Virus genome (UHGV): UHGV-1800104
Direction: 5' to 3' (one strand)
DNA from: a virus
Length of the DNA stretch: 25,476 bases
This document shows positions 5,878 to 19,277 of this stretch, in pieces (the stretch's first letter is position 1; each line of letters begins with the position of its first letter). A program made the position numbers and the translations under genes. The notes under the pieces were generated by a model. That model was not told the origin of the DNA and made no database searches. It saw only the letters and a program-made list of their open reading frames with translations.

Positions 5878-6035
5878 AACTCTAATGATTTGTGTTAGAA
5901 AACTAAAATTAAATCACATAACAACATGCGTGTTAATAGATTTTATTTTACTAAACCTATTGACTAAATCACAAAGTAGGTATTGTTAGCCCGTCAAAAG
6001 AACCTTCACGCCGCGCCCGAATTTAGGGCTTAACC

Positions 6036-7733
6036 GTGAATAAAAACATTCAGCCAGCTCGTGATCGCGAGCGCGAGATTATGAATCGGGCGGCAAGCGT
6101 CATGGCTATGACCGTCGATCCGACCACCGATGCAGCAGGCAACATGATTGCTGACCAGGCAGTAATGATGGAAAACCTGGATAAAGCAATCCAGAAAGTG
6201 CCTATGTTTGAAGGCGTAAATCCAGAGGTCGCTCGTCAGATCACTGGTGGGTGGGCTATGTCTCTGCATGAGTATAAACGTCAACATGGTCATTACCCGG
6301 CAAGTGACATCCTGGCGAACGCACACATGGCTCTTGAACGCCTGATGACTGAATGTGCCAGTGATACCCATGAAGGCACGGGTAAGGCAATGTTTGAGTC
6401 TGTCGCGCAATCAATGCGTAGCTCTGACGGCGTAATGAAAGTTGCTCAATATGCTGCTCTAATTCTGCCTGCCTCTCTGGGCGCTGCTACCAGTGATGCC
6501 TGTACTTTTGTTCCTTGTGATCGTGACGAGTCAAATATTTATGAACTGGTCAACGTAGCAGGCACAAAATTCGGCACCTTCAAACAAGGTGACGAACTGA
6601 ATATGCAGTCAGCTGGTGTTTATTCTCAAATGAAGCGCCTGTATACCCTTTCCACTAAAGGGGATGGCAGCACCAAAACCTTCCAGTTCGACATCCAAAA
6701 TTTTGAGGGACAATCCTGCCCGCTTCGCGCTGGTTATAACAAACTGCTGATCAACCGCAAACCGTCCAAAGTTGACGACGGCGATGGCAACCTTTATTTC
6801 AATGCTAAAGACAGCAAAGGTAATGCTTTCTCAGCGACTGCCAAAGTTGCCTATGACACTGGTGTCATTGACATTACATTTACCCAGGCTCCGCCAGAAG
6901 GTACTGAAATTGCTGTTCAGGTCGAAATTAACATCGAGCGCAATCCAAGCCTGATTCCTGTGATCAACCAGGCTATGCGTAAGTACGAAGTTCGTCCGTC
7001 CCAGTACGTAATTGCTTCCGAACACACGGTAATGTCCGCATCCGATTTAAGCCGTGAGCACGGCCTTGAATTAGCGGCACTTCAGTTCTCCGCGATGCGT
7101 AACTGGATCTCCCATGAAACCGACATCATGCGTCTGCGCACCCTGGTATTCCATACCGTTTATGGTCGTGAATTTGATGTGGCTCTGCCGGAAGCTCAAA
7201 ACTATGAGTCCTGGGTCGGCCTCCTGCGTCACGTAGTAAACGCTCTGTCTCAGGAAATGGCAAATCGTACCCTGACAACGGGGATTCGTGGCGGCTTTGC
7301 TGGTGGTGACGCCGCGAACTTCCTGCGCTCTCTGCCTCCACAGCACTTCCAGATCGCACCAGGTTACGTTCAGTCGCCGTATGTACAGTACATCGGCACC
7401 CTGTTTGGCACGATTCGTATTTACGAAGTGCCGCAACCTGTCTGTGAGCAATTCCAGGCACAGGGATATGACTTCGGGCTGGATGACATCTTCTTCTATG
7501 GGCGTGGCGAAGGCATCGGTAAAGCCGGTCTGATTGCTGGTGATGCAGTCCCAGCAATCCCTTACGTGCACGAAACCAATCCGTCTCTCGTTAACCGTAC
7601 CACTCTCTGGGGCAGTGCCATCAACGAAGTGCATCCTCGCAACGGTGAAAACTACTTCACCCGCCTGCGTCTGACTCGTGCCAAAGAAGGTGCTATCGAC
7701 ATGCTGACAGGCAAGGTTAACGAAAAAAAGTGA
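6036..7733 (+). CDS. major virion protein, 565 aa; putative major capsid protein with a charged N-terminal delta-like region
   Basis: Long ORF at the head of the forward structural block, just upstream of an Ig-like protein gene and the sheath gene. Charged, helix-prone N-terminus. Start is GTG 6036 (AGGG upstream) or ATG 6081. The capsid assignment is by position and size only. Confidence 0.35.
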   Translation: MNKNIQPARDREREIMNRAASVMAMTVDPTTDAAGNMIADQAVMMENLDKAIQKVPMFEGVNPEVARQITGGWAMSLHEYKRQHGHYPASDILANAHMALERLMTECASDTHEGTGKAMFESVAQSMRSSDGVMKVAQYAALILPASLGAATSDACTFVPCDRDESNIYELVNVAGTKFGTFKQGDELNMQSAGVYSQMKRLYTLSTKGDGSTKTFQFDIQNFEGQSCPLRAGYNKLLINRKPSKVDDGDGNLYFNAKDSKGNAFSATAKVAYDTGVIDITFTQAPPEGTEIAVQVEINIERNPSLIPVINQAMRKYEVRPSQYVIASEHTVMSASDLSREHGLELAALQFSAMRNWISHETDIMRLRTLVFHTVYGREFDVALPEAQNYESWVGLLRHVVNALSQEMANRTLTTGIRGGFAGGDAANFLRSLPPQHFQIAPGYVQSPYVQYIGTLFGTIRIYEVPQPVCEQFQAQGYDFGLDDIFFYGRGEGIGKAGLIAGDAVPAIPYVHETNPSLVNRTTLWGSAINEVHPRNGENYFTRLRLTRAKEGAIDMLTGKVNEKK

Positions 7734-7846
7734 TGGTGGCGAACGTGTCGGTATCACCAACGTCACTTGACGTAGATGAAGGTGAAACTATCGCCGCGAA
7801 CACTTCAAAGGCACAGAAAAAAACAAAGCAGAAGTAAGGCAAAAAC

Positions 7847-7867
7847 ACGCCCCTGAATAAGGGGCGT
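7847..7867. other. GC-rich stem-loop between the 565-aa gene and the Ig-like gene
   Basis: ACGCCCC / GGGGCGT 7-bp stem with loop TGAATAA. A run of five A precedes it, so on the minus strand it would read as hairpin plus T-run. Confidence 0.35.
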
Positions 7868-7880
7868 TCAGGAGAAAAGA

Positions 7881-8159
7881 ATGGCAAACATTCAAGTAAC
7901 TATCACGCCATCTGACGCAACAGACAAATCTTTCACTGTTGAGTCAGATCACCCTGAAATTGTCCAGGTTGATGGCACTACATGTACCGCTCTTAAGGCC
8001 GGGCAGGCAGTGCTGACAATCAAAACAAATGACGGCAATAAAACCGCACAGTGCACAGTCACTGTTAGGGAGGCACCTAAAAGCGTAAGCGCCGTCAGTG
8101 TTGAACCAACTACGAAAGAAGTAACCGTAGGCGACAACTTCACGGTAAGCGAATCCTGA
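7881..8159 (+). CDS. bacterial Ig-like (Big_2-type) domain protein, 92 aa; candidate virion decoration protein
   Basis: AGGAG RBS. TITPSDATDKSFTVESDHPEIVQVDGTTCTALKAGQAVLTIKTNDGNKTAQCTVTV has the Big_2 pattern. The C-terminus (VSAVSVEPTTKEVTVGDNFTV) looks like the start of a second Ig repeat cut by the stop. Confidence 0.6.
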   Translation: MANIQVTITPSDATDKSFTVESDHPEIVQVDGTTCTALKAGQAVLTIKTNDGNKTAQCTVTVREAPKSVSAVSVEPTTKEVTVGDNFTVSES

Positions 8160-8163
8160 TCAG

Positions 8164-8190
8164 AGGCTGCCCATTAACCGTGGGTAGCCT
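8164..8190 (+). terminator. stem-loop after the Ig-like gene, possible weak terminator or attenuator
   Basis: AGGCTGCCCA / TGGGTAGCCT 10-bp stem with one G-U pair and loop TTAACCG, followed by a pyrimidine-rich tract (TGCCTCGTTCTCTCGCTTT). Confidence 0.3.
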
Positions 8191-8226
8191 TGCCTCGTTC
8201 TCTCGCTTTAGAGGATAAGAACCAGC

Positions 8227-9885
8227 ATGAATAAGATTAGTTTTTCGGTAGGGCAGGCAGCTGGCGTTGCTGTAATGTCAGTCAATGCTGACGCTACCCT
8301 CACCAATACCAGCGGTGGCGCTTCCGTCTTTGCTGGGCTTGTAATATCGCGTCGTGGCGCACCGGGTAAGGTACTGAAAGTTGACGATACGACTTATCAA
8401 AGCGTATTAGGTTCACCGATTCACCCTCGCCTGGGCGCGGCATTTGAACCATACCGCCACGTGGAGCGTGCAGTAAAAGGCGGTTCTGGATATGTCGTTC
8501 GAGTTTGCGCTAAAGACATGAAGGTACCGAGTATTTCTGTTTCCGTTGTGGGCAGAGCAAAAGCGGCAAAGGCGAGTAAAGAACTTTCCGTTGAACCAAC
8601 TGAAACCACAGTAAATCCAGGTGACACATTAAGCGTTGGTGTTGCTTCAACAGTAACGACTCAATCAGAGGTCTTCACACCAAAAGAGACGCCTCAGATA
8701 AAAGGTGATGAGAAAGCATTATTCTTCATCAAAGATGGTGATGCATCTCAAAATCGCACGTTATCACTAACCCGCGATAATGAAGAAAGCGAACTCTTTA
8801 CGCTGACGCTGAAAGAAAAACAAACTGATGGGTCCATTGAGGTACTGGAAAGCCACCAGGTGTCCTTCAATCCAGAAGGCACTAACGACATGGGCCAACC
8901 TGCATGGATTCCGACACTGCTTGAAAGCCAGTCCACTCGCATTGGTGCCGTGCTGGCAGATGATGCAGAAGCATCTGCTGCTCAACTCATTTTTGAGGAT
9001 GTAGCTTTTGAAGGTGGTACTGATGGCGATCTGTCCACAATTAACACTGAAGACTATCTGGAAGCATTAAAGGTTCTCGAAGCTTCAGAGGTTAATTACA
9101 CCGCATTGCTGTCACTGGGTTGTTATGACGCATCCGCCTTAGCCGCAATCAAAAAGCTGGCTGAAGATGTTCGCGTAGACATGTTCTATGACCTGAAGGG
9201 CAACCAGACACCTGAAAACGCTATTTCAGAAGCGAAAAGCCATAGTTTTGGCGGCTCACATCAACCAAGCCGTTACTACTTCCCGCTTTCCTGCCGAGAT
9301 ACCTTCACTGGGATGAATGTCGTCTATGGCATTAGTTGCGACGCATTCGTAGCGAAAGCAAAAGGAGTTGCGCTGGTACCGGATGTTGGTGGTTGGCATT
9401 ACGCACCCGCAGGTATATCACGCGCAATTATTGATCGACAGAACATTGCCCGAATTCCAAATATCGGTGCAGTTGATCGTGAAGCGTTCGTTCTTGCGCG
9501 CATTAATCCAGTTTCAGTTGCTGCTGACGGGTCCGTTTACATTGACGACTCTTTAACAACTTACAGCAAAAACAACTATCTGCGATTCCAGCATGTGTCT
9601 TCCTTGATGAACGCCATCGCCAGAAATTTCTATGACGTAGCTCAGGCGATTAAGCACGAACCGGATGGCATTACCAAAGAAACGCTCATGAAAGCAATGA
9701 CTGAATTGCTTGACCGTTACGTTGCAGCCGGTGCGCTGGTTACTCCACGTGACAAATCCCAGGGCGAAGATCCATATGTTGTTCAGGTTGTCCAAAAGGA
9801 CATCGATCTGTGGGAAGTGTCCTGGTCTGTTTGTCCGACCGGTACAGCTCGCCGAATCGTCGGTAAGCCAATTCTGATGCGCTGA
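8227..9885 (+). CDS. contractile tail sheath protein
   Basis: C-terminal half follows the conserved sheath-family pattern as I recall it: DYLEALKVL, RVDMFYDLKG, RYYFPLS, GVALVPDVGGWHYAPAGISRAIID, ARINPVSV, YLRFQHVSSLMNAIARNFYDVAQAIKHEP, and a C-terminal LWEVSWSVCPTGTARRIVGKPIL. GAGGA RBS. Confidence 0.75.
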   Translation: MNKISFSVGQAAGVAVMSVNADATLTNTSGGASVFAGLVISRRGAPGKVLKVDDTTYQSVLGSPIHPRLGAAFEPYRHVERAVKGGSGYVVRVCAKDMKVPSISVSVVGRAKAAKASKELSVEPTETTVNPGDTLSVGVASTVTTQSEVFTPKETPQIKGDEKALFFIKDGDASQNRTLSLTRDNEESELFTLTLKEKQTDGSIEVLESHQVSFNPEGTNDMGQPAWIPTLLESQSTRIGAVLADDAEASAAQLIFEDVAFEGGTDGDLSTINTEDYLEALKVLEASEVNYTALLSLGCYDASALAAIKKLAEDVRVDMFYDLKGNQTPENAISEAKSHSFGGSHQPSRYYFPLSCRDTFTGMNVVYGISCDAFVAKAKGVALVPDVGGWHYAPAGISRAIIDRQNIARIPNIGAVDREAFVLARINPVSVAADGSVYIDDSLTTYSKNNYLRFQHVSSLMNAIARNFYDVAQAIKHEPDGITKETLMKAMTELLDRYVAAGALVTPRDKSQGEDPYVVQVVQKDIDLWEVSWSVCPTGTARRIVGKPILMR

Positions 9886-9929
9886 TTTATAACCCCCCGC
9901 TAAATGATGCGGGGGAAAGAGGTTTGAAT

Positions 9930-10664
9930 ATGAAAAATTATACTGCTGATCCTTTTATGCGTGCGATTTTCGGTTCTGGCTGCTTTGAAAGCGGTGATAA
10001 ATCCACGCAGGACAATAATGATAACGCCATGCTGGAAAGCGCAGGACAGAAAGGGAAGGACACTCAACCAAAGCCCAAAGACGACATTGAAACCGCAATG
10101 ATGGAAGCGGTTGAATCCCGTGCACAAGGTGATATGCGCAGCCTGGCAGCTTCCATGCTTGCTGGTTGGGTTGAAGATGGTGATCCGGAGGCTGACTCAT
10201 TTGATGCATTAGCAATCACTATGGCTGGTCTGGCTGATATCGATGAAGACACCGATTTCACCGATGAGCAAATCGATGCTTATAACGATGCTCTCGCAGC
10301 TCTTGCTGATGCAGCTGTTGCGCTTGGCGCTGATCAGGACGATGTAACCGAAATGATCGACGATGAAGATGACTCAGCTGCCGAACGTGTTTATGACGCT
10401 CTTTCCGAAAGCGACACCGACATGATGGAAACAGCTATTGCCATTTACACCGTTGCTGGTGGTGATAGCGCAATGCTGGAAGCGGTACGTAAAAAAGTGG
10501 TTCGTGATGGCAAGGTTACCATCATCCGTAAACGCCCGCGTCCTCGCCGCATGACGTCATTGCAAAAACAGGCGCTGAAAAAAGCACGCCGCAAAGCACA
10601 TACATCCGTAGCGAATATCAACCGCAAAAAATCAATGCGCATTCGCAAAAAACGCGGTTTGTAA
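9930..10664 (+). CDS. bipartite protein: strongly acidic body with a polybasic C-terminal tail, 244 aa; function unknown (scaffold-like or DNA-mimic-like)
   Basis: ATG at 9930 with AAGAGG about 7 nt upstream. Body dominated by D/E (DIDEDTDFTDEQIDAY, DDEDDSAAERVYD); last ~55 residues are Lys/Arg-rich (IIRKRPRPRRMTSLQKQALKKARRKAH...RKKSMRIRKKRGL). Confidence 0.6.
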   Translation: MKNYTADPFMRAIFGSGCFESGDKSTQDNNDNAMLESAGQKGKDTQPKPKDDIETAMMEAVESRAQGDMRSLAASMLAGWVEDGDPEADSFDALAITMAGLADIDEDTDFTDEQIDAYNDALAALADAAVALGADQDDVTEMIDDEDDSAAERVYDALSESDTDMMETAIAIYTVAGGDSAMLEAVRKKVVRDGKVTIIRKRPRPRRMTSLQKQALKKARRKAHTSVANINRKKSMRIRKKRGL

Positions 10665-10713
10665 GTGACATAGGCCGCCTGCAAAGGTGGCCTCTACCTG
10701 GGAGAAATAGCGT

Positions 10714-11304
10714 TTGATTTGCGGCGCGATAATGCCTGACGGAATAAGTCCGTTAATGAAGGTTTATATCCTCTCTTCAGAGGATATGGTCGTCGGTTAT
10801 ATCGGTGAAGGATCTACCGCAGAACTGTCATCAATGTGGCAATCACCATTTGAAAACCAGTCAGTAGGAGGTTTGCTTGGCGGTATTAGCGCTGCGGCTG
10901 GCTCTCTTGCAGATACGCTTCAGACCGCAACCGGCGTAACAACAAAAACCCTCTTCAACTCAATGCTTGTTTGGGAAGGTCAGCAACCGCCTGAATTTAA
11001 TCTGGTAATTGATTTCATGGCGACAACGAACGCGCAACTTGAAGTGAACGCAGCCATTACAGCATTGCTGAAGATGGAATCGCCGGAACTGAACAATGTA
11101 GCGCCATTCGGTCGTCGCCCGGAGACAGTAACGTTAAACATAGGTAGGAACATAGCCCTTACCGACGTTGTTATCAAAAGCGTGAGTTACCAACTGGACG
11201 CCCCGCGCACACCGGAAGGCTATTTCACTCATAACACGGTAACCCTGCAATGCAGCGGTAACACATCGATCAACCGTAGCAATATCTCATCTGTTTTTGT
11301 GTAG
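10714..11304 (+). CDS. hypothetical virion protein, 196 aa
   Basis: ORF in the structural block between the acidic protein and the putative tube gene. Start uncertain: TTG 10714 (GGGAG about 9 nt upstream), ATG 10732 or ATG 10756. Confidence 0.5.
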   Translation: MICGAIMPDGISPLMKVYILSSEDMVVGYIGEGSTAELSSMWQSPFENQSVGGLLGGISAAAGSLADTLQTATGVTTKTLFNSMLVWEGQQPPEFNLVIDFMATTNAQLEVNAAITALLKMESPELNNVAPFGRRPETVTLNIGRNIALTDVVIKSVSYQLDAPRTPEGYFTHNTVTLQCSGNTSINRSNISSVFV

Positions 11305-11312
11305 GAGTATTT

Positions 11313-11804
11313 ATGTCCGGTTTTGCAAATACAAAAGCCGATATGGCCTTTCTAAAATCCCGGTTTAATAAAAACCTGGCTGCAGGCGAAAAACTTATTG
11401 GTTCTGAATATTGGATGACCATTAAGGGTTACGAACATCTGTCTGTACTAGTTCGTACAGCTCAGTTACCAGAAATGACACGTGAAGATGTGGAGGATTA
11501 CGCCCCTGGTGGCATGAAATTCAACCAGCACGGACCATTACGCAACTCTGGTGAATTTCAGGTCACATGCGCGGAAACTATCGAAGGCGCAGTTCTCGCC
11601 GCTGTAAAACAGATGGTATACGGAAAAGAATATCTGGAAATTACCTTACAGGCGGCGGCTGAATCGAATAGCGGTAACCATAAAGGTCTGATCCGCACAT
11701 ATTCTCATTGCAAAGTGTATTCCGACGCCGTGGACTTCTCATCCGAAGACGTAACGGCGGTCGTTAAACCTTCTCTGCGCATTGTTTACAACTGGGCGGA
11801 ATAA
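11313..11804 (+). CDS. putative tail tube protein, 163 aa
   Basis: AGGAG RBS. Size and position near the sheath gene fit a tube protein; the C-terminus (...RIVYNWAE) loosely recalls the C-terminus of the T4 tube protein as I remember it. Assignment is tentative. Confidence 0.35.
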   Translation: MSGFANTKADMAFLKSRFNKNLAAGEKLIGSEYWMTIKGYEHLSVLVRTAQLPEMTREDVEDYAPGGMKFNQHGPLRNSGEFQVTCAETIEGAVLAAVKQMVYGKEYLEITLQAAAESNSGNHKGLIRTYSHCKVYSDAVDFSSEDVTAVVKPSLRIVYNWAE

Positions 11805-11858
11805 TCCCTATCCCGCCCTTGTGGCGGGAACATCCTTGTTATTGAGTTGTAGGCAACA

Positions 11859-12410
11859 ATGACACCAATTGAATTATTAGAAAGCGTTAAAGAGCGATTT
11901 AATCCACTGCTTGTGCGTGAAGAAGAAACGTTGAAAGCATTCCTGATCAAAGCTCTGACCACGTATCAGGACAGGGCAGGGGTAGTGAAAACGTTAAAAC
12001 TTGAAAAAGCTGGTGGTACTGCAATTCCGTTGCCAGAAGATTATCTCTCTCTGGTTCATGTTACCGACAACAACGGCCTGTTGGTCTATTCGGATGAATT
12101 ATCCGGATTTATTGAATTAGAGCTAACAGGTTCAGAACGCTGGCCTTTACGAATGCTGTATCTGGTTAACCTACGCGACAGAAAGCTGGATGAATGGCAA
12201 GTGCCTCCTGCAATCATTGGAATGCTGGAGGAATATCTAGAGGCGCTTATCAATGTAAGAAATGTCGCTCGGCAGCGTAGAGCGTCCATCGACGGGAAAT
12301 TTGACTACTCCGATCTGCCCGATGAAGCCACGCTATATGCCCGCGTGCAGGAGATTGAGGAAAAAATGTCCTCAAACCGGGCCATTATTCCGGGGGCTAC
12401 CATTTTTTAA
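11859..12410 (+). CDS. hypothetical virion protein, 183 aa
   Basis: Intact ORF co-oriented with the structural block; preceded by a GC stem-loop (11811..11829). No family recognised. Confidence 0.5.
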   Translation: MTPIELLESVKERFNPLLVREEETLKAFLIKALTTYQDRAGVVKTLKLEKAGGTAIPLPEDYLSLVHVTDNNGLLVYSDELSGFIELELTGSERWPLRMLYLVNLRDRKLDEWQVPPAIIGMLEEYLEALINVRNVARQRRASIDGKFDYSDLPDEATLYARVQEIEEKMSSNRAIIPGATIF

Positions 12411-12425
12411 CGCTGGAGGCGCAGA

Positions 12426-13133
12426 GTGAGTATTTTCAGCAGCGTTGGTAGAACGTTGACCACCGCATTGTCATTTAACACGAAATCATTCACCAGCAAC
12501 CTCATTAGCGACATTCTTGATAAAGCCATATCAGGCGGCGGGGTAAGCGGGAATTACAGTAGCGATATTGCCTACGGGAAAAATATTGTTGCTGCCGCTA
12601 TGCGTATCCGTTACGCCCAGGGGTGGCAGTGGACCGTTGAAGTGGATGGTCTGAACGGCTTCGATATGTTCGTGAAGGATATCACCTACAGCAGTGGGAA
12701 CATCGAGACAGAAAGCAAGGTGATCGGCAGCGTAGAATTCAGCAAGCCAACCTATGTTAGCGCCGGACCGGTCACTATGACCGTGAGGGATACCGAAGAT
12801 GGCAAGATCATGGACTGGTTCAAAGAGCGTCGTTCTCGTGTAACAAATCCTGATGGAACAATAAACCTTCCTCCTGAATATCTGATGAAAATCCGTGTCT
12901 ACCGGGTGACTCAGGACGGCGGAAAAGAACTGGAAGAAGAAATGCGCGTATTTCCTACGCAACTTGGGGAAATCACACGCTCACGTGATCAGGTGTCAGA
13001 GTTCTTGTCATACCCAATCACTTTCCAGAAATACACATCCGCAGGCTCAGGTGTTTCTGCTTTGGTCAACGGTGCCGCTGGCATGGCTACAAGTGCGTTA
13101 AAGGGGGCTGTGAGTGGAGTAATCAAATTCTGA
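12426..13133 (+). CDS. hypothetical virion protein, 235 aa
   Basis: GTG start with GGAGG about 6 nt upstream; last gene of the forward block before the replicon. No family recognised. Confidence 0.5.
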   Translation: MSIFSSVGRTLTTALSFNTKSFTSNLISDILDKAISGGGVSGNYSSDIAYGKNIVAAAMRIRYAQGWQWTVEVDGLNGFDMFVKDITYSSGNIETESKVIGSVEFSKPTYVSAGPVTMTVRDTEDGKIMDWFKERRSRVTNPDGTINLPPEYLMKIRVYRVTQDGGKELEEEMRVFPTQLGEITRSRDQVSEFLSYPITFQKYTSAGSGVSALVNGAAGMATSALKGAVSGVIKF

Positions 13134-13222
13134 ATAGCTTTAATTATGTGTGCTGGAGGGTTGCTCATTTCCCGCCAGCACCCACGCCCTCAACGATAGC
13201 GGGTAGGGAAGGTAGCGCAATT

Positions 13223-13518
13223 TTGAGGGCATTTTTTACATCATCAATTCATCTGTAATGAAGGCATTCTTTACACATTTCAATAATATCAATCAGTTAA
13301 CACAGTGAATGATAATAAAAAAGCGCAATAAGAATGCACGATACGCACGATATTGGTTGAGGGCGATTTTTACATAGTCCTTACATATCAATACGTTATA
13401 TAAAAACACAACTTGCTAATAACAAGATACATGCAATTAAGATGTAAAAATTGCCCTCAATTGCCGATCGTTAAGGGCAAATTCTACACCTTGAGAGGGG
13501 TGTAAAAATTGCCCTTAA
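13223..13518. repeat. iteron array downstream of the initiator gene (about 20-bp units, mixed orientation); candidate copy-control locus
   Basis: Units matching TTGAGGGCAAATCTTACACC: direct at 13223..13242 and 13357..13376, inverted at 13441..13460, direct variant at 13471..13490, inverted at 13499..13518 (overlapping the initiator stop codon). The spacers are AT-rich. Confidence 0.7.
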
Positions 13519-14303
13519 GACTGCTGATAGGTAAATTTTATCCTGGTAACTTTGCCGCCTTCCGTCACCTCTGAGAAGACTATTTTCATTTTTGTATTTT
13601 TTTCAATCTCTGCTACAGCCTTCGTTAAAAAACTTCTCTTAAATTCGGCATACCGCTGATAGCTTTTTGGTAACCCATAACGCTCCCGCATCCATTCGAC
13701 GCCAAGTATGGCAAAGCCGCTTCCATCATCCTTCCTGTACTGGCATAAGGACTCATAAAGCCGCATAGAATAAGGATTTGTAAGGCGAGATACTTCGGTA
13801 AAATTCAGCCTTGTGAATCTCTTATCAAGCAGAGTAAAAAACGGCATGAGATATGGATTAAGATGAATAATGTAAGTCCCGCGCCGTGGTGAATAGGCAT
13901 CCTTAATCATCCAAGGATAAGACTCATAACTGTCTTCTGATTCGGTCGATTCATCAGGGTTATATATCGTAACTTTCTTCTCGCTAAGCCCTGAAATGGC
14001 CTTACGAATATCCTTGCTGGCTTCAGCAGAGGGCAAATTATACATCTCTGCATATTCGTTGACCGTCAACTCACAGGCACCTGAACCAAGAACGCCATCC
14101 TTAGAAGCATAGCGAAGTCTTCCCACCACAATAAACAACAGTCGCTTTTGGTCGCGAGTCAGGTGATAAGCAGCCTCCGTGATCTCATTGGCTTGTGCCA
14201 AACTACGACTAATAGGTGTCGCTGACTCAATCAGGCTGACGGCTTTTGCTGTTAATTCCGCTCTGTTCATAACCCTGTGTGATCCTTCAAATGGTGAGGG
14301 CAA
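13515..14303 (-). CDS. repE: RepE-like (F-plasmid RepFIA-type) iteron-binding replication initiator
   Basis: ITEAAYHLTRDQKRLLFIVV, AEASKDIRKAISGL, SYESYPWMIKDAYSPRRGTYIIHLNPYLMPFF and TNPYSMRLYESLCQYRKDDGSGF closely match F RepE as I remember it. Flanked on both sides by iterons. Start is ATG 14270 or TTG 14303, which lies inside the first iteron. Confidence 0.85.
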   Translation of the reverse strand: MPSPFEGSHRVMNRAELTAKAVSLIESATPISRSLAQANEITEAAYHLTRDQKRLLFIVVGRLRYASKDGVLGSGACELTVNEYAEMYNLPSAEASKDIRKAISGLSEKKVTIYNPDESTESEDSYESYPWMIKDAYSPRRGTYIIHLNPYLMPFFTLLDKRFTRLNFTEVSRLTNPYSMRLYESLCQYRKDDGSGFAILGVEWMRERYGLPKSYQRYAEFKRSFLTKAVAEIEKNTKMKIVFSEVTEGGKVTRIKFTYQQS

Positions 14304-15494: not shown

Positions 15495-18400
15495 ATGGAT
15501 ATCAGCCCGTTAGCGACGTTGAACAATTACCGCAATGGCGAGCACTCCATATGTCAAAAGCCCTGGAAGAAAAATACAAAGCTCAAGCTGGGAAACGTTG
15601 ATCGCGCTGGTAAAAGAGAGGTTATTTTGAAAGAAAATAAAGACCGTATCGCAATAATTGACGCTATTCAGGAAGCGAGCACAAACGAACTTAAAGCTCT
15701 TGCTGAGGTAAAAGACGCCATTCTTTCTGGGGCAAGCACCATAACTCAACAGGACGAAAGGCAAGGCAGAGTTAGCAACAGACTATCACGCAGGCGTAAA
15801 GACTACGAGCAAAGTACATCTGATAGCGTTAGAGATGTCCAAACTAACCCATATAAAAAACGTCTCCCTGCTAAAAAGGAGAGGGCACCGATAAACCAAA
15901 CCGTGGACCGCTCTATCGTTGCAACGAACACACCAGAAAGTGTTCGCTCTGTGCAATCACGTCAGACCATCCGAAAATCGGACGGTTTTATACCAGTAGC
16001 TGCTAATTCAGCACCTCTTGAACCACAATCCCCCCAAAGTCTAAAAGGCCCGCTGCGGGATAGTAATGGACGTTTTGTATCCCAAAAAAGCAATGAGGAT
16101 GTAGCCAGAAAAAAAGAATTGCAGAACGCACGTAAAGCCGACGCAAAATTACAAGCTGGCTTTCTCAGAAAGCTAGGTTCCATTATGGGGGTAGATGGCA
16201 ATCAGTCTTCCAGTGAAGAGTCTTTAACAAATGCAGCTGGTGTCGGTGCTGGTGGGCCGTTATGGATGGCGGCTCGTGGCATGTACGACATAACTAAAGA
16301 GATCACAGGTAAAGCAGAATCTCTTAAAGAATGGGTAGAAAAGGGGAAAAAAGAAACATCAACCTCGAAAGCGATATCACCAGTAATTACTTATCCGGCG
16401 GCGGTGAATTCTCAAAAATCAACATCTGCAAAAGCGTTCAATAACGCTGTTGAGACAAAATCCGCACAAGCAGTAGAAGAGCAAACCAAAATCCTTCAGA
16501 CCAATGACAACAAAATAATTGATGGTCTGGAAAATGTTTCTGACGAGATAGTTAAGCTTCGGAAATCAGTGTCTTCTGGAAATAAGTTCGGCTTAAGTGA
16601 TCTCTGGAAAAATCGAGCAAGCAGAAGAAATAAAATTAATATTGGTGATCGGGCGGGAAAAAATAAACGGAACAAATCGAAAAGGAAAGGCCGCAATCTT
16701 GGGAAAAAAGCACTCTCCGTTGGCGAAAAAGTTGCTGCCGGTAGCGCTGCAGCTGGCACTGGTGTCGGAACAGCCAAAGCAGTTAAAAATAAGATCAGCA
16801 AACCCAAAGATGTAAGCACTATCAGCGATACATCAAAGGGGATTGCAAAGGAAACAAAAAATACTGCTAAGGCCGTGAAGTCAGCTGGTGTTGTGGCTGA
16901 AGATACTACCATTAAAACCGGCGAAGCCATTGCAAAGAAAAAAACTGAATCTGTAGCCCTCAAAAGTGCTGCAAAAATAGGTGTTAAATCAGCAGCATCC
17001 ACAGCGGCAAGAGCGGTCCCTATCATCGGTTCGCTGGCAATGGCTGGATATGACGCCATAGATGGTTACACAGATACAGAGGCGCAAAAGGCAGCCTTTG
17101 GTTTAAGTGACGATGATGCTGTATCCGAACAGCAAAAAACGGCTTACGCAACAGCTAATGTGCTCGATATGGGGGGCTTGGTGTCGGGCGCAACAAACTT
17201 GATAGGGAAAGGAATTTCTGCGCTAGGATTTGAAAGAGCTGGTGAAAAACTTCAGAATTTTGATACCGGAGATATTGCTCGTGGTGTTAACGGTGCAGTA
17301 GATATCACCAAATCTGTTTTTGGTAGCCTTAAGGATACATTTTTATCCACTGACGAAAACACGAAACAAGTAAAAAAAGCGGTTGAGGATGGCACCAAGA
17401 AGACCGTCGATGCGATTCATTCTTTAGGTGAGCAGCTACAAGGCGGGCGTGATGGTGAAGATGGTGTTGGTGAGCACGGGTATACTTCCCCGGCTGAATT
17501 TAATGCCCCTGCCAGCAACACCATTGCAGCGGATCTGAATATTGGTGGCAGCAACGCTAAAAACCGCAATTACCGGAATAATAACCTCGGCAACCTTGTT
17601 TTCGCTAATCAGGAAGGGGCGGCGCTGGAAGCACCAAATGCAAAAGGTGAACAACGTTTTGCGCGATTTAACACGCCTGAAGAAGGGATCAGGGCGCTGG
17701 CAAACCAGGTGTCAAGCTATTACAACGGCACCAGCGCCGCCGCTGGGTATCAGAAGCTACAGACGGTATCCAGTATTATTTCCAAATGGGCACCCCCAAA
17801 GGAGAACAATACTAATCAATATATTGATAACGTCAGCAAATATCTTGGCGTCTCGCCTAATGAAAAAATAGACGTCAGCAACCCAGAGGTTATGACGCAA
17901 TTAGTTCGTGCAATAGCGACGAAAGAAGGTGGAAACCCGGCGGTTAACAATGAGTTCATAAAGAATGCTCTTGGGGCATTTAACACAAACACTGGTCGAT
18001 GGGAGGGACAATTCTCTGACGAAACATTGGCGCGGATTAATAAAATTCAGAAAGAAAATGGTGGTCAGCTAATTGCCCGCGATTCGCAATATAGTGTTGG
18101 TCGCAAGGTAAAATATGCTAATGGAAAATCTCCAGCTCAACCAGTTTTGAATGCCGTTCCGACAGCAACACAACAGCCAATTGAGGTTGCACAACATGCC
18201 CAGGCAGTCAAAAAGCCACAAAAAACAGGCAATCAATCGCAACCGATTAATCCAGAGAATGTTGATGTTAATACTGGCTCGCCATCAAGTCTGCTTGAGA
18301 GATTAATCGCTATAAATGACAGCGGGGTAGGTAATTTATTTGGAGGTGCGGCTACCAGCCTTGCTGGTACAAGCCTTGGCCTGATTAAGGATTTTGCGTC

Positions 18401-19277
18401 GGCGACTTCGTTTGGTTCTATATCTTCGCTTTCCGAAAAAGCGAAAGGAATGGATCAGGCTCTTACTGAAAAGATATCCAGCTTAACCGGTAAATCTTTT
18501 GGATTTCAAAAAGCAAGCCAGGTAACTGATATAAGAGACGCTTTACAAAAAAGACCAAAAGCTGAACGCGATATGCCTTCAGTGGATCTTCTTTCCGGTG
18601 TTTCTTCGGCAAGTGAGAGTGAAAAAATCTCTGTAAACTCAAGGGGGATTCCAGTTTATGACAATGGATACAAGGTAATTGATGGTGAAGATAAGGGGGT
18701 GCTTGGCTCTTTGTTTGACTCGTCATTAACAGGTCTGAAACGTATTAGCTCTGCTGTGTTACCTGCAATTGGCGATAACGTTTCACAACTTATTGGTGGG
18801 GTAGATGGCACAGGCATTGTTAATGATTTGGTTTATCAGGCTACTGGGCAGAACTCAACAATTGCCAGGGCTATTAGCCCGCTTACCAAGAGCGCCGGTA
18901 GTTGGCTGAATAATGGTATTCAACAAACCGCAGATAGCATTAGAGGTATATCAAACGAAGCCAATAATGCCATATTTGGCTCTGCGTCAGCCGTGCAAGA
19001 ACCTTTTCTTGCTATGCCACCACAGCTTCCTACTGTAACAGATCTCGCACGAAGCGGAATAAGACAACCATTAACTACTGACACTATAAATAACGATCCT
19101 GCTATGTTGAAGGCGCTGGATAACATCTGCTCTATCCTGAACGACCTTCTGAATGTGAACAAGAACAATACAAAAGGCGATCCGGATAAGGTTGTCAAAA
19201 CATCGCAGCCGCAACCGCGACCACGTGCTAGCACAACTATTAATGACCCGTCGCTGGATGCTCTGCTTGAGGATTAA
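15495..19277 (+). CDS. tail tape-measure-like protein, 1260 aa, with an embedded globular domain
   Basis: Very long ORF just upstream of baseplate genes. Lys/Ala/Gly-rich helical regions and hydrophobic Gly-rich segments (GVGAGGPLWMAARG, AVPIIGSLAMAGYDAIDG). An internal block (NRNYRNNNLGNLVFANQEG...SKWAPPKENNTNQYIDNVSKYLGV...ATKEGGNP) looks like a folded domain, possibly cell-wall-interacting. Confidence 0.65.
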   Translation: MDISPLATLNNYRNGEHSICQKPWKKNTKLKLGNVDRAGKREVILKENKDRIAIIDAIQEASTNELKALAEVKDAILSGASTITQQDERQGRVSNRLSRRRKDYEQSTSDSVRDVQTNPYKKRLPAKKERAPINQTVDRSIVATNTPESVRSVQSRQTIRKSDGFIPVAANSAPLEPQSPQSLKGPLRDSNGRFVSQKSNEDVARKKELQNARKADAKLQAGFLRKLGSIMGVDGNQSSSEESLTNAAGVGAGGPLWMAARGMYDITKEITGKAESLKEWVEKGKKETSTSKAISPVITYPAAVNSQKSTSAKAFNNAVETKSAQAVEEQTKILQTNDNKIIDGLENVSDEIVKLRKSVSSGNKFGLSDLWKNRASRRNKINIGDRAGKNKRNKSKRKGRNLGKKALSVGEKVAAGSAAAGTGVGTAKAVKNKISKPKDVSTISDTSKGIAKETKNTAKAVKSAGVVAEDTTIKTGEAIAKKKTESVALKSAAKIGVKSAASTAARAVPIIGSLAMAGYDAIDGYTDTEAQKAAFGLSDDDAVSEQQKTAYATANVLDMGGLVSGATNLIGKGISALGFERAGEKLQNFDTGDIARGVNGAVDITKSVFGSLKDTFLSTDENTKQVKKAVEDGTKKTVDAIHSLGEQLQGGRDGEDGVGEHGYTSPAEFNAPASNTIAADLNIGGSNAKNRNYRNNNLGNLVFANQEGAALEAPNAKGEQRFARFNTPEEGIRALANQVSSYYNGTSAAAGYQKLQTVSSIISKWAPPKENNTNQYIDNVSKYLGVSPNEKIDVSNPEVMTQLVRAIATKEGGNPAVNNEFIKNALGAFNTNTGRWEGQFSDETLARINKIQKENGGQLIARDSQYSVGRKVKYANGKSPAQPVLNAVPTATQQPIEVAQHAQAVKKPQKTGNQSQPINPENVDVNTGSPSSLLERLIAINDSGVGNLFGGAATSLAGTSLGLIKDFASATSFGSISSLSEKAKGMDQALTEKISSLTGKSFGFQKASQVTDIRDALQKRPKAERDMPSVDLLSGVSSASESEKISVNSRGIPVYDNGYKVIDGEDKGVLGSLFDSSLTGLKRISSAVLPAIGDNVSQLIGGVDGTGIVNDLVYQATGQNSTIARAISPLTKSAGSWLNNGIQQTADSIRGISNEANNAIFGSASAVQEPFLAMPPQLPTVTDLARSGIRQPLTTDTINNDPAMLKALDNICSILNDLLNVNKNNTKGDPDKVVKTSQPQPRPRASTTINDPSLDALLED

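What the first reader, a model, noticed from the sequence alone, without database searches (positions are those of the whole stretch)
9930..10664. Strongly acidic protein with a polybasic tail encoded between the sheath and tube genes
The body is dominated by Asp/Glu and the last ~55 residues are Lys/Arg-rich. The gene is co-transcribed with virion genes. Two readings fit: a scaffolding-type assembly protein with a basic binding domain, or a packaged DNA-mimic-like protein (anti-restriction style) whose basic tail tethers it to DNA or the virion. Its position between sheath and tube is not where a scaffold is normally encoded.
Basis: partly seen in the sequence, partly recalled or inferred. 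Interest (0 to 1): 0.5.

Follow-up and report, generated by a model that had tools for sequence, protein, structure and literature searches.

The report
Protease-cut head protein, mislabelled as tail
This acidic protein with a strongly basic tail is the phage D6 copy of phage P1 gene 21, and although databases call it a tail or baseplate part, it carries two conserved cutting sites for the head-maturation protease, so it is most likely a processed head-assembly protein, a component P1 was thought to lack.

Summary
ORF 9930-10664 (+) encodes a 244-aa protein whose residues 51-187 have net charge -35 and whose last 57 residues have +23; no shuffle of 100,000 reached this charge separation. It is 100% identical to phage D6 orf47 and 41-44% identical to P1 gp21 (PHROG 1053, unknown function).

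All family members examined (about 260 proteins) keep an acidic body and a basic tail of about 60 aa. The gene sits between sheath and tube-linking genes in about 240 viral loci.

The new result is two cleavage-type motifs in predicted disordered linkers: AMLE|S (E36) and AMLE|A (E184), the latter exactly at the acid/base junction. They match the Edman-mapped maturation site of the P1 capsid protein (AMLE|S). Across about 130 genomes the residue before the cut is the same at all three sites and switches together among Glu, Asp, Ser and Ala. A control motif in PmgC does not co-vary.

P1 gp21 was not detected in virion proteomics or built into cryo-EM models. I conclude it is a prohead-protease substrate, hence a head-internal scaffold or core-type protein, cut into a propeptide, an acidic domain and a 7-kDa polybasic peptide. 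Cleavage itself and the role of each piece are inferred, not shown. The DNA-mimic reading found no support. Interest is moderate to high.

The parts
9930..10664 (+). Whole gene: the D6-type ortholog of P1 gene 21 (244 aa plus stop), PHROG 1053
   Evidence: ORF and sequence. 100% identical to D6 orf47 and 41-44% identical to P1/P7 gp21. phrog_1053 E=3.4e-85.
9917..9922 (+). Shine-Dalgarno AAGAGG, 7 nt before the ATG
   Evidence: Read directly from the sequence.
9930..10037 (+). Predicted N-terminal propeptide, residues 1-36 (4.0 kDa), mostly disordered with a short helix at 8-14
   Evidence: AF2 pLDDT 40-56. Its end is defined by the invariant E36. Fragment mass. The family median propeptide length is 30 aa.
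10026..10040 (+). N-site: AMLE|S (residues 33-37), a predicted prohead-protease cleavage site
   Evidence: E36 is invariant in the 70-sequence alignment A2, whose members are all Glu-type; over the wider family this residue is E, D, S or A. It has the same motif as the P1 gp23 site KAMLE|SVAA and co-varies with the capsid site across E, D, S and A types.
10095..10109 (+). Possible third site AMME|A (residues 56-60), conserved only in the enterobacterial subfamily
   Evidence: E59 and A60 are at least 90% conserved in A2 but absent from the Asp-type subfamily. The site lies in a confident helix, so it is less certain.
10038..10481 (+). Acidic body, residues 37-184 (15.6 kDa, net -33); residues 50-176 are predicted as a compact helical bundle
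   Evidence: Composition. AF2 pLDDT 86-98 with helices 50-83, 88-98, 112-131, 136-145, 148-159 and 163-176. No structural relatives.
10470..10484 (+). C-site: AMLE|A (residues 181-185), a predicted cleavage site exactly at the acid/base junction
   Evidence: E184 is invariant in A2, whose members are all Glu-type; over the wider family this residue is E, D, S or A. The linker 181-186 has pLDDT below 50. Agreement with the capsid-site residue is 100% in 124 genomes. S and A types agree as well.
10482..10661 (+). Polybasic tail module, residues 185-244 (7.1 kDa, net +24): a beta-hairpin at 187-200 plus two helices at 210-241. It is the most conserved part of the protein.
   Evidence: Conservation. 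AF2 pLDDT 81-93. Length after the C-site: median 60 aa, 5th-95th percentile 59-67. The module is duplicated in tandem in two family members.
6387..6401 (+). Reference site in the capsid gene (6036-7733): AMFE|S, residues 118-122, aligned to the Edman-mapped P1 gp23 cleavage E120|S121
   Evidence: The P1 site comes from PMC9024508.
8227..9885 (+). Upstream neighbour: tail sheath (gp22 ortholog)
   Evidence: phrog_1036 E=5e-196. D6 annotation.
10714..11304 (+). Downstream neighbour: PmgG (tube-linking protein in the P1 baseplate)
   Evidence: phrog_1114. Role in P1 from PMC12810830.
11313..11804 (+). BplB ortholog (the tail tube protein in P1)
   Evidence: phrog_1120. PMC10304247.

Best explanation
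The gene encodes a head-internal assembly protein of the scaffold or core type that is processed by the phage's prohead protease. It is not a tail or baseplate part. Shown: the charge architecture, its conservation, the synteny, and two (locally three) copies of the capsid-maturation cleavage motif in disordered linkers. The residue before the cut co-varies with that of the capsid protein's own site through four states (Glu, Asp, Ser, Ala). Inferred: (1) the protein enters the prohead together with the capsid protein and the protease. (2) The protease cuts after E36 and after E184, giving a 4-kDa propeptide, a 15.6-kDa acidic helical domain (net -33) and a 7.1-kDa polybasic peptide (net +24). 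(3) The conserved tail (beta-hairpin plus helix-turn-helix) is the docking element, binding the capsid interior, an acidic partner, or neighbouring acidic bodies. Cutting precisely at the junction uncouples the acidic body, which is then lost from the head and would be repelled by incoming DNA. This resembles herpesvirus scaffold release by cleavage of its C-terminal capsid-binding tail, and T4 core proteins cut at Glu sites. (4) The fate of the basic peptide is open: it may be lost, or retained on the DNA. In this view the 'tail' phenotype attached to P1 gene 21 reflects polarity on pmgG and bplB, or a mis-assigned open reading frame.
For: Motif identity: P1 gp23 is cut at KAMLE|SVAA by Edman sequencing (PMC9024508). 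The D6 capsid protein has KAMFE|SVAQ, and D6 gp21 has NAMLE|SAGQ and SAMLE|AVRK. Both Glu residues are invariant in 70 Glu-type homologs and lie in linkers with pLDDT below 50. Co-variation in 128 genomes (capsid site / gp21 N-site / gp21 C-site): EEE 72, DDD 50, AAA 1, and 5 apparent exceptions: the three DED and the one DKD are alignment slips, and one locus lacks an aligned capsid site. Two Ser-type loci are SSS. On a capsid-protein tree built with the site masked there are at least 3 independent coordinated switches. Control D/E columns in the capsid, sheath and BplB proteins reach at most 84% agreement in either direction (at most 91% if inverse association is counted), against 100% and 97.6% for the gp21 sites. 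The PmgC 'LLES' motif does not co-vary. Within 260 family members the N-site and C-site residues pair as EE 181, DD 35, SS 4, AA 2. Proteins carry 2.6-2.8 own-type motifs against 0.4-0.55 in shuffles; D6 gp21 has 3 against 0.2, P=0.001. The same type switch appears in the protease's own C-terminal motifs: P1 Pro has 5 phi-phi-E|S sites, and Asp-type Pro homologs have phi-L-D|S/A. The motif also predicts DarA cleavage at DLLE|A (E68|A69), and the cryo-EM DarA model lacks density for residues 1-69. Variants with N-terminal extensions carry 4-5 motifs, and two variants carry two basic modules, each preceded by a motif. P1 gp21 is absent from the virion proteome table, the cryo-EM component list and the PDB, as expected for a protein removed at maturation. 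P1 has no identified separate scaffold. The gene sits behind the two highest-copy structural genes with a strong Shine-Dalgarno sequence.
Against: No experiment shows gp21 in proheads or shows it cleaved; every processing step is inferred from sequence. The P1 record labels gene 21 'baseplate or tail tube', a label that comes from amber-mutant phenotypes. A true scaffold defect should give head defects. The gene lies among tail genes in every genome examined. There is no sequence or fold similarity to any known scaffold; the only hint is a weak hit of 2 of 15 members to phrog_14114, 'head scaffolding protein', at E=0.005. The acidic body is predicted to be a compact bundle, not the elongated coiled coil typical of scaffolds. 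P1-type capsid proteins already carry a 120-residue N-terminal domain proposed as the scaffold, and Pro has a coiled-coil C-terminal half, so a further scaffold may be unnecessary. Genomes are related, so the co-variation rests on a handful of independent switches (3 to 5).
Confidence: 0.6

Rival explanations
1. A non-structural tail assembly factor (chaperone) needed for baseplate or tube formation. The basic tail would bind the negatively charged tube lumen or the tape-measure complex, and the protein would leave before the tail is finished.
For: The P1 gene 21 record says 'baseplate or tail tube'. The gene always lies between the sheath and tube-linking genes. The protein was not detected in P1 virions. 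The tube lumen is electronegative (PMC10304247).
Against: This reading does not explain two conserved motifs that track the capsid maturation site through Glu, Asp, Ser and Ala, because prohead proteases act inside proheads. The gene is not at the chaperone position (tube to tape measure); PmgB occupies the position upstream of the tape-measure gene sit. There is no overlapping frame for a -1 frameshift product and no hit to chaperone families. The tail phenotype can be explained by polarity: the CRISPRi 'essential' call is uninformative because pmgG and bplB lie downstream, and no non-polar knockout of gene 21 was made.
Confidence: 0.15
2. A packaged cargo protein: the acidic domain is a DNA mimic or other anti-defence effector, targeted to the head by its N-terminal propeptide, tethered to DNA by the basic tail, and injected with the genome.
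For: The high density of acidic residues on a compact domain is typical of DNA mimics. An N-terminal propeptide removed at a protease site resembles T4 capsid-targeting sequences and DarA processing. P1-type heads do carry injected anti-restriction proteins. The fragments yield at most 1-2 usable tryptic peptides, so the two-peptide proteomics threshold could have missed them.
Against: No fold match to Ocr, ArdA or any other DNA mimic. The gene is a core, syntenic gene present in every relative found, unlike the variable Dar genes. Cleavage at E184 would separate the supposed tether from the supposed effector. No gp21 density or chain appears in P1 virion structures.
Confidence: 0.1
3. A precursor of a protamine-like DNA-condensing peptide. 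The acidic body is an intramolecular neutraliser that keeps the +24 tail harmless in the cytoplasm. After cleavage in the prohead the 60-aa peptide stays on the packaged DNA. This overlaps with the best explanation but puts the function in the tail rather than in scaffolding.
For: The tail is the most conserved part and has a fixed length. It is excised exactly at its boundary. Two family members carry two tail modules, each with its own upstream motif, as in a polyprotein. The peptide is invisible to tryptic mass spectrometry, with one peptide of 7-10 aa.
Against: There is no evidence of retention in virions. Conservation of non-basic positions (G194, Q212, A215, L216, S235, G243) and a predicted defined fold suggest a specific protein partner rather than non-specific DNA binding.
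Confidence: 0.15

Closest known systems
Phage P1 gp21 (P1_gp056, YP_006524.1) and PHROG 1053
   Same: Ortholog: 41-44% identity, the same acidic body and 59-60-aa basic tail, and the same position after the sheath gene.
   Different: P1 gp21 is 271 aa with a longer N-terminal region, and its C-site reads EMLTE|A. Databases annotate it variously as 'baseplate or tail tube', 'tail tube protein', 'tail protein' or hypothetical. None of these labels is backed by a fold or by presence in the virion.
T4 prohead core proteins (gp22 scaffold, gp67, gp68) and internal proteins IPI-III, cut by the gp21 protease after Glu (established knowledge of T4 head assembly)
   Same: Acidic, helical and of similar size (T4 gp22 is about 269 aa). 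Several cleavage motifs of the form hydrophobic-x-Glu followed by a small residue. An N-terminal segment is removed, as with the T4 capsid-targeting sequence. The protein is absent from, or fragmented in, mature heads.
   Different: No detectable sequence or fold homology. The body is predicted to be globular. No T4 core protein has a 60-aa +24 tail excised as a unit. The gene lies among tail genes.
Herpesvirus scaffold (pre-VP22a / UL26.5) released by assemblin cleavage of its C-terminal capsid-binding tail (established knowledge); P1 Pro is reported to resemble the HK97 gp4 protease
   Same: A maturation protease cuts at the boundary between the scaffold body and a short C-terminal docking tail, uncoupling the body from the shell.
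   Different: The herpesvirus tail is about 25 aa and not polybasic. The resemblance is in proposed mechanism only and was not tested here.
P22 gp8 scaffolding protein, C-terminal basic helix-turn-helix coat-binding domain (established knowledge)
   Same: A C-terminal helix-turn-helix with basic residues that binds the coat protein electrostatically. The gp21 tail is predicted to end in two helices.
   Different: P22 gp8 is not proteolysed but recycled. Its domain carries only a few basic residues. No fold hit was returned.
Adenovirus core protein precursors pVII and pX/Mu, processed by the viral protease into basic DNA-condensing peptides (established knowledge)
   Same: A maturation protease releases a highly basic peptide inside the capsid.
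   Different: An unrelated virus and protease. Retention of the gp21 peptide on DNA is only a hypothesis.
DNA-mimic anti-restriction proteins Ocr (T7 gp0.3) and ArdA
   Same: A very acidic, compact protein.
   Different: No fold similarity. gp21 is a late-operon core gene, it has a basic tail, and it was not found in P1 virions.

Membership tests
P1 gp21 / PHROG 1053 family | Full-length sequence homology to P1 gp21 | tested here: met
   phrog_1053 E=3.4e-85 over residues 1-244. tblastn to P1, P7, SJ46 and RCS47 at 40-44% identity over 74-87% of the query.
P1 gp21 / PHROG 1053 family | Gene order capsid, sheath, gp21, PmgG, BplB | tested here: met
   Present in the window, in P1, in D6 and in about 160 IMG/VR loci.
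Prohead-protease-processed head core / scaffolding proteins | Carries the protease's recognition motif at conserved, accessible positions | tested here: met
   AMLE|S and AMLE|A lie in disordered linkers. The residue before the cut co-varies with the capsid site through E, D, S and A. The motif is enriched 5- to 7-fold over shuffles.
Prohead-protease-processed head core / scaffolding proteins | Actually cleaved by the prohead protease | not testable with these tools
   This needs biochemistry. Only the P1 gp23 site is mapped experimentally.
Prohead-protease-processed head core / scaffolding proteins | Present in proheads, absent or fragmented in mature virions | tested here: inconclusive
   The virion half is consistent: P1 gp21 is not in the LC-MS/MS table, the cryo-EM component list or the PDB. 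Prohead content is unknown. The mass-spectrometry absence is weak evidence because few tryptic peptides are usable.
Prohead-protease-processed head core / scaffolding proteins | Loss of function gives a head-assembly defect | tested here: inconclusive
   The P1 label is 'baseplate or tail tube'. The CRISPRi result is polar. No non-polar knockout exists. The primary phenotype papers are not in the held library.
Prohead-protease-processed head core / scaffolding proteins | Sequence or fold homology to a known scaffold | tested here: not met
Tail tube / baseplate structural protein (the database label) | Tube-type beta-sandwich fold or a baseplate fold | tested here: not met
   The AF2 model is an all-helical bundle plus one hairpin. 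There are no tube or baseplate matches.
Tail tube / baseplate structural protein (the database label) | Component of the virion | tested here: not met
   The P1 tail and baseplate were fully assigned to other proteins, and gp21 is not among them. It is not in the proteome.
Tail assembly chaperone (lambda gpG/GT, P2 E/E' type) | Encoded between the tube and tape-measure genes, with a programmed -1 frameshift extension | tested here: not met
   The gene lies between the sheath and PmgG genes. The tape-measure gene (15495-19277) is preceded by PmgB. No overlapping + strand ORF exists at the 3' end of the gene.
DNA-mimic anti-restriction proteins (Ocr / ArdA) | Fold that displays acidic residues in a DNA-like array; homology to known mimics | tested here: not met
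DNA-mimic anti-restriction proteins (Ocr / ArdA) | Accessory gene, expressed early or delivered in the virion | tested here: not met
   It is a core syntenic gene in the late structural block and was not detected in P1 virions.

The most novel reading that the evidence does not exclude
gp21 is a charge-block polyprotein. Its acidic domain and its +24 tail let it self-associate into the prohead core. The prohead protease dissolves that core by cutting exactly at the block junction. The excised 60-residue polybasic peptide then stays in the head as a protamine-like counter-ion on the packaged DNA and enters the cell with it. This component of the classic phage P1 would have escaped detection because trypsin shreds it and icosahedral averaging hides it.
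Probability: 0.25. Interest if true: 0.8.

Novelty: new variant of a known kind. Interest (0 to 1): 0.62.

Why it matters
P1 is one of the founding model phages. Yet the 2022 proteome paper and the 2026 whole-virion cryo-EM paper both state that no separate scaffolding protein is known and assign that role to the capsid protein's N-terminus. Gene 21 is conserved across a large lineage of about 60-100 kb myoviruses and phage-plasmids, with 496 clusters at 50% identity. It carries contradictory tail labels in the databases.

Evidence that it is a substrate of the head protease would do four things:
- Correct the annotation of the family.
- Add a missing player to P1 head assembly.
- Give a sequence rule for the protease (hydrophobic-hydrophobic-X|Ser/Ala, with X switching between Glu, Asp, Ser and Ala in different lineages). 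The rule also predicts the unmapped DarA cleavage site and self-cleavage sites in Pro.
- Raise the testable possibility that a polybasic peptide is packaged with the DNA.

The four-state switch of a protease and all its substrates together is also a clean natural example of coupled change in enzyme specificity and substrate sites.

Tried and rejected
- **Family and sequence searches.** Pfam gave no family for gp21, or for P1 Pro. PDB sequence searches with the family profile and with P1 gp21 gave nothing meaningful.
- **Literature.** The P1 genome paper (PMC523184) and the amber-mutant electron-microscopy paper (PMC256520) are not held. The gene-21 phenotype therefore rests on the GenBank note and on my recollection. 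The supplement of the proteome paper has no gp21 entry.
- **Universality test.** A sheath-anchored scan, meant to ask whether every P1-type sheath gene is followed by gp21, failed because the sheath alignment had no stretch conserved enough to search with.
- **Protease locus scan.** The Pro-anchored scan returned only Glu-type relatives. Asp-type Pro sequences were instead found at the edges of loci already held.
- **Frameshifted chaperone.** Considered and rejected, because no alternative-frame ORF exists.
- **Composition-driven D-versus-E co-variation.** Considered and rejected. Control columns and the PmgC motif do not follow the pattern, and composition cannot explain the Ala and Ser types.
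- **Apparent exceptions.** The apparent mixed cases DED and DKD are alignment slips; a fifth exception is a locus with no aligned capsid site.

Full report
**What is there**

The window is a close relative of phage D6: 98.8% nucleotide identity over 6000-13200. D6 is a P1-like myovirus and plasmid prophage.

ORF 9930-10664 (+) starts at an ATG, 7 nt after an AAGAGG Shine-Dalgarno sequence. It encodes 244 aa that are 100% identical to D6 orf47 ('putative baseplate protein, similar to P1 gene 21') and 41-44% identical to gp21 of P1, P7, SJ46 and RCS47. It belongs to PHROG 1053, 'unknown function', and has no Pfam family.

The neighbours are:
- capsid gp23: 6036-7733
- a 92-aa Ig-like ORF: 7881-8159
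- sheath gp22: 8227-9885
- PmgG: 10714-11304
- BplB: 11313-11804
- PmgC: 11859-12410
- Tub: 12426-13133
- a Rep3-type initiator on the opposite strand: 13515-14303
- PmgB, the tape measure Sit, PmgA, BplA, gp16 and R

Residues 51-187 contain 26 Asp, 13 Glu, no Lys and 4 Arg (net -35). Residues 188-244 contain 12 Lys, 12 Arg and one Asp (net +23). None of 100,000 shuffles reached the observed charge separation: 60, against a maximum of 46. No other protein in the window comes close.

The pattern is a property of the family. In 115 close homologs the body is -26 to -40 and the tail +16 to +29. An exhaustive profile search found 496 cluster representatives, and those I sampled keep the same design. 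The tail after the junction has a median of 60 residues, 5th-95th percentile 59-67, and it is the most conserved part of the protein.

**Structure**

AlphaFold2 with a 70-sequence alignment gives mean pLDDT 81. It predicts:
- a disordered N-terminus (residues 1-49)
- a compact helical bundle (50-176, pLDDT 86-98)
- a low-confidence linker (181-186)
- a beta-hairpin (187-200) plus two helices (210-241), at pLDDT 81-93

**What is known about the P1 ortholog**

- The P1 record labels gene 21 'baseplate or tail tube'.
- gp21 is missing from the virion LC-MS/MS table, which lists its neighbours gp22, gp23, PmgG and BplB (PMC9024508).
- gp21 is not among the proteins built into the whole-virion cryo-EM maps, where tail and baseplate are fully assigned to other proteins (PMC12810830, PMC10304247).
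- P1 gp23 is in the PDB, but no chain matches gp21.
- A CRISPRi screen scored gene 21 as essential. The authors stress that such calls are uninformative upstream of known essential genes, and pmgG and bplB lie downstream (PMC10695390).
- The 29 single-gene knockouts of the 2022 study were drawn from the pmg/upf-type genes of unknown function; gene 21 is not mentioned among them in the text I read, and the list itself (Supplementary Table S3) was not checked.
- Both recent P1 papers state that P1 has no identified separate scaffolding protein.

**The key finding**

The alignment shows two invariant Glu residues inside otherwise variable, disordered linkers. E36 lies in AMLE|S, and E184 lies in AMLE|A exactly at the acid/base junction.

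The only experimentally mapped cleavage by the P1 head protease is in gp23, between E120 and S121. The sequence there is KAMLE|SVAA. The D6 capsid protein has KAMFE|SVAQ at the aligned position.

I fetched about 240 related loci from IMG/VR. In 128 genomes that hold both genes I compared the residue before the cut at the capsid site and at the two gp21 sites:
- Glu at all three sites: 72 genomes.
- Asp at all three sites: 50 genomes.
- Ala at all three sites: 1 genome (GLMLA|S, ALMLA|S, ELMLA|A).
- Apparent exceptions: 5. The three DED and the one DKD are alignment slips with the expected motif a few residues away; the fifth is a locus without an aligned capsid site.

Two further loci have Ser at all three sites: DMLLS|S with ILLS|S and MLLS|S, and GMLLS|A with MFLS|S and LILS|Q.

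On a capsid-protein tree built with the site masked, the states require at least three independent coordinated switches.

**Controls**

- Other Asp/Glu-variable columns in the capsid, sheath and BplB proteins agree with the capsid-site state at most 84% of the time in either direction (at most 91% if inverse association is counted). The two gp21 sites agree 100% and 97.6%.
- A similar-looking LLES motif in PmgC does not co-vary at all.
- Within 260 family members the two gp21 sites pair as EE 181, DD 35, SS 4 and AA 2.
- Each protein carries 2.6-2.8 motifs of its own type, against 0.4-0.55 in shuffles.

**The same rule in other head proteins**

- P1 Pro contains five phi-phi-E|S motifs, mostly in its coiled-coil C-terminal half.
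- P1 DarA has DLLE|AISS, with the cut predicted after E68, and the cryo-EM DarA model lacks density for residues 1-69.
- The portal C-terminus and DdrB each have one motif.
- Pro homologs in Asp-type phages carry phi-L-D|S/A instead.
- The cultured Asp-type relative, Xanthomonas phage Rb1, has VTLD|S and PALD|A in its gp21 homolog, IAMD|S in its capsid protein, and ILD|S and FLD|S in its annotated 'prohead core protein protease'.
- Family variants with N-terminal extensions carry four or five motifs. Two variants contain two basic modules, each preceded by a motif.

**Interpretation**

Shared and co-switching recognition motifs are hard to explain unless the same protease reads all three sites. 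Prohead proteases act inside proheads. I therefore place gp21 inside the prohead as a processed scaffold or core-type protein.

For D6 the predicted products are:

| Residues | Mass | Net charge |
|---|---|---|
| 1-36 | 4.0 kDa | -3 |
| 37-184 | 15.6 kDa | -33 |
| 185-244 | 7.1 kDa | +24 |

The most economical mechanism has three parts. The conserved tail docks the protein. Cleavage at the junction releases the acidic body. DNA entry helps expel that body. This is inference. The closest analogies are T4 core proteins and the herpesvirus scaffold tail.

Absence from the P1 proteome fits removal at maturation, but it is weak evidence. After cleavage each fragment yields at most one or two usable tryptic peptides, and the tail only one, against a two-peptide threshold.

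**What argues against it**

- The tail-type label of P1 gene 21.
- The gene's constant position among tail genes.
- The lack of any homology to known scaffolds.
- The globular prediction for the acidic body.
- P1-type capsid proteins already have an N-terminal domain proposed as the scaffold, and Pro has a coiled-coil half.

The tail label could come from polarity on pmgG and bplB, or from assigning the genetic locus to the wrong ORF. I could not read the primary papers to check this.

**Rivals**

A tail assembly chaperone explains the label and the position but not the motifs. It also fails the positional and frameshift criteria of the known chaperone class. A packaged DNA mimic has no structural or distributional support. 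A variant in which the excised basic peptide is the functional product, retained on the DNA, is compatible with everything found here and is favoured by the tandem-module variants, but it is untested.

**Verdict**

- The DNA-mimic reading is not supported.
- The database labels 'tail tube' and 'baseplate' are most likely wrong.
- The protein is best filed as a new variant of protease-processed head-internal assembly proteins.
- The central biochemical step, cleavage in the prohead, still has to be shown.

Noticed in passing
L161:19014-20033 (P1 pro); L054, L062, L040, L034, L010 and L011 near their 5' ends: The P1 head protease Pro has no Pfam family. Its C-terminal, coiled-coil-like half carries several copies of its own cleavage motif: TMLE|S, AMIE|S, GMFE|S, LLE|S and LFE|S. 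Asp-type homologs carry L-D|S/A instead. This looks like a protease fused to a self-cleaved scaffold domain, as in lambda C/Nu3 or P2 gpO. RefSeq mislabels Pro as 'tail fiber protein'.
   Followed up: partly
L161:27904-29823 (-) (P1 darA): The motif rule predicts that DarA is cut at DLLE|AISS (E68|A69). This fits the cryo-EM DarA model, which lacks density for residues 1-69, and it fills a gap left when N-terminal sequencing of DarA failed (PMC9024508). DdrB (GLFE|S at 439) and the portal C-terminus (QILE|S at 557) also carry one motif each.
   Followed up: partly
L089/L253 (IMGVR_UViG_3300009414_000001); L245; L246: Some lineages have switched the residue before the cut from Glu or Asp to Ala (LMLA|S) or Ser (LLS|S) at the capsid site and at both gp21 sites together. 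This implies changes in protease pocket specificity. The protease genes of these contigs were not retrieved.
   Followed up: partly
P0194 (408 aa) and P0257 (412 aa): Two distant family members contain two copies of the 60-aa basic module, each preceded by a cleavage-like motif. P0257 also has extra domains. Their genomic context was not examined.
   Followed up: no
window 9894-9915: A perfect 7-bp GC-rich hairpin (CCCCCGC, an 8-nt loop, GCGGGGG) lies between the sheath stop codon (9883-9885) and the gp21 Shine-Dalgarno sequence, with no T-run after it. P1 has only 9 nt in this gap, so the hairpin is not conserved. It may be an mRNA-stability or translation-tuning element.
   Followed up: no
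window 13515-14303 (-): A Rep3-type plasmid replication initiator (Pfam Rep3_N and Rep3_C) lies on the opposite strand between tub and pmgB, splitting the tail-gene block. In P1 these tail genes are contiguous and replication uses RepA/RepL located elsewhere.
   Followed up: no
window 7881-8159 (+): A 92-aa ORF consisting of a bacterial Ig-like (Big_2) domain lies between the capsid and sheath genes. P1 has no gene there and is said to lack a decoration protein. This ORF could be a capsid or tail decoration.
   Followed up: no
window 11859-12410 (PmgC) and its homologs in about 55 loci: The head-tail adaptor PmgC starts with a conserved MTP..LLE/D motif that resembles the cleavage motif. It does not follow the Glu/Asp state of the genome, so it is probably not a protease site. 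It served as a negative control.
   Followed up: yes
L243/L244 (Xanthomonas phage Rb1, PQ569993.1): A cultured 91-kb Xanthomonas phage belongs to the Asp-type branch of this lineage. It keeps the order capsid, one extra gene, sheath (labelled 'tail connector protein'), gp21-like gene. It would be a second experimental system.
   Followed up: partly
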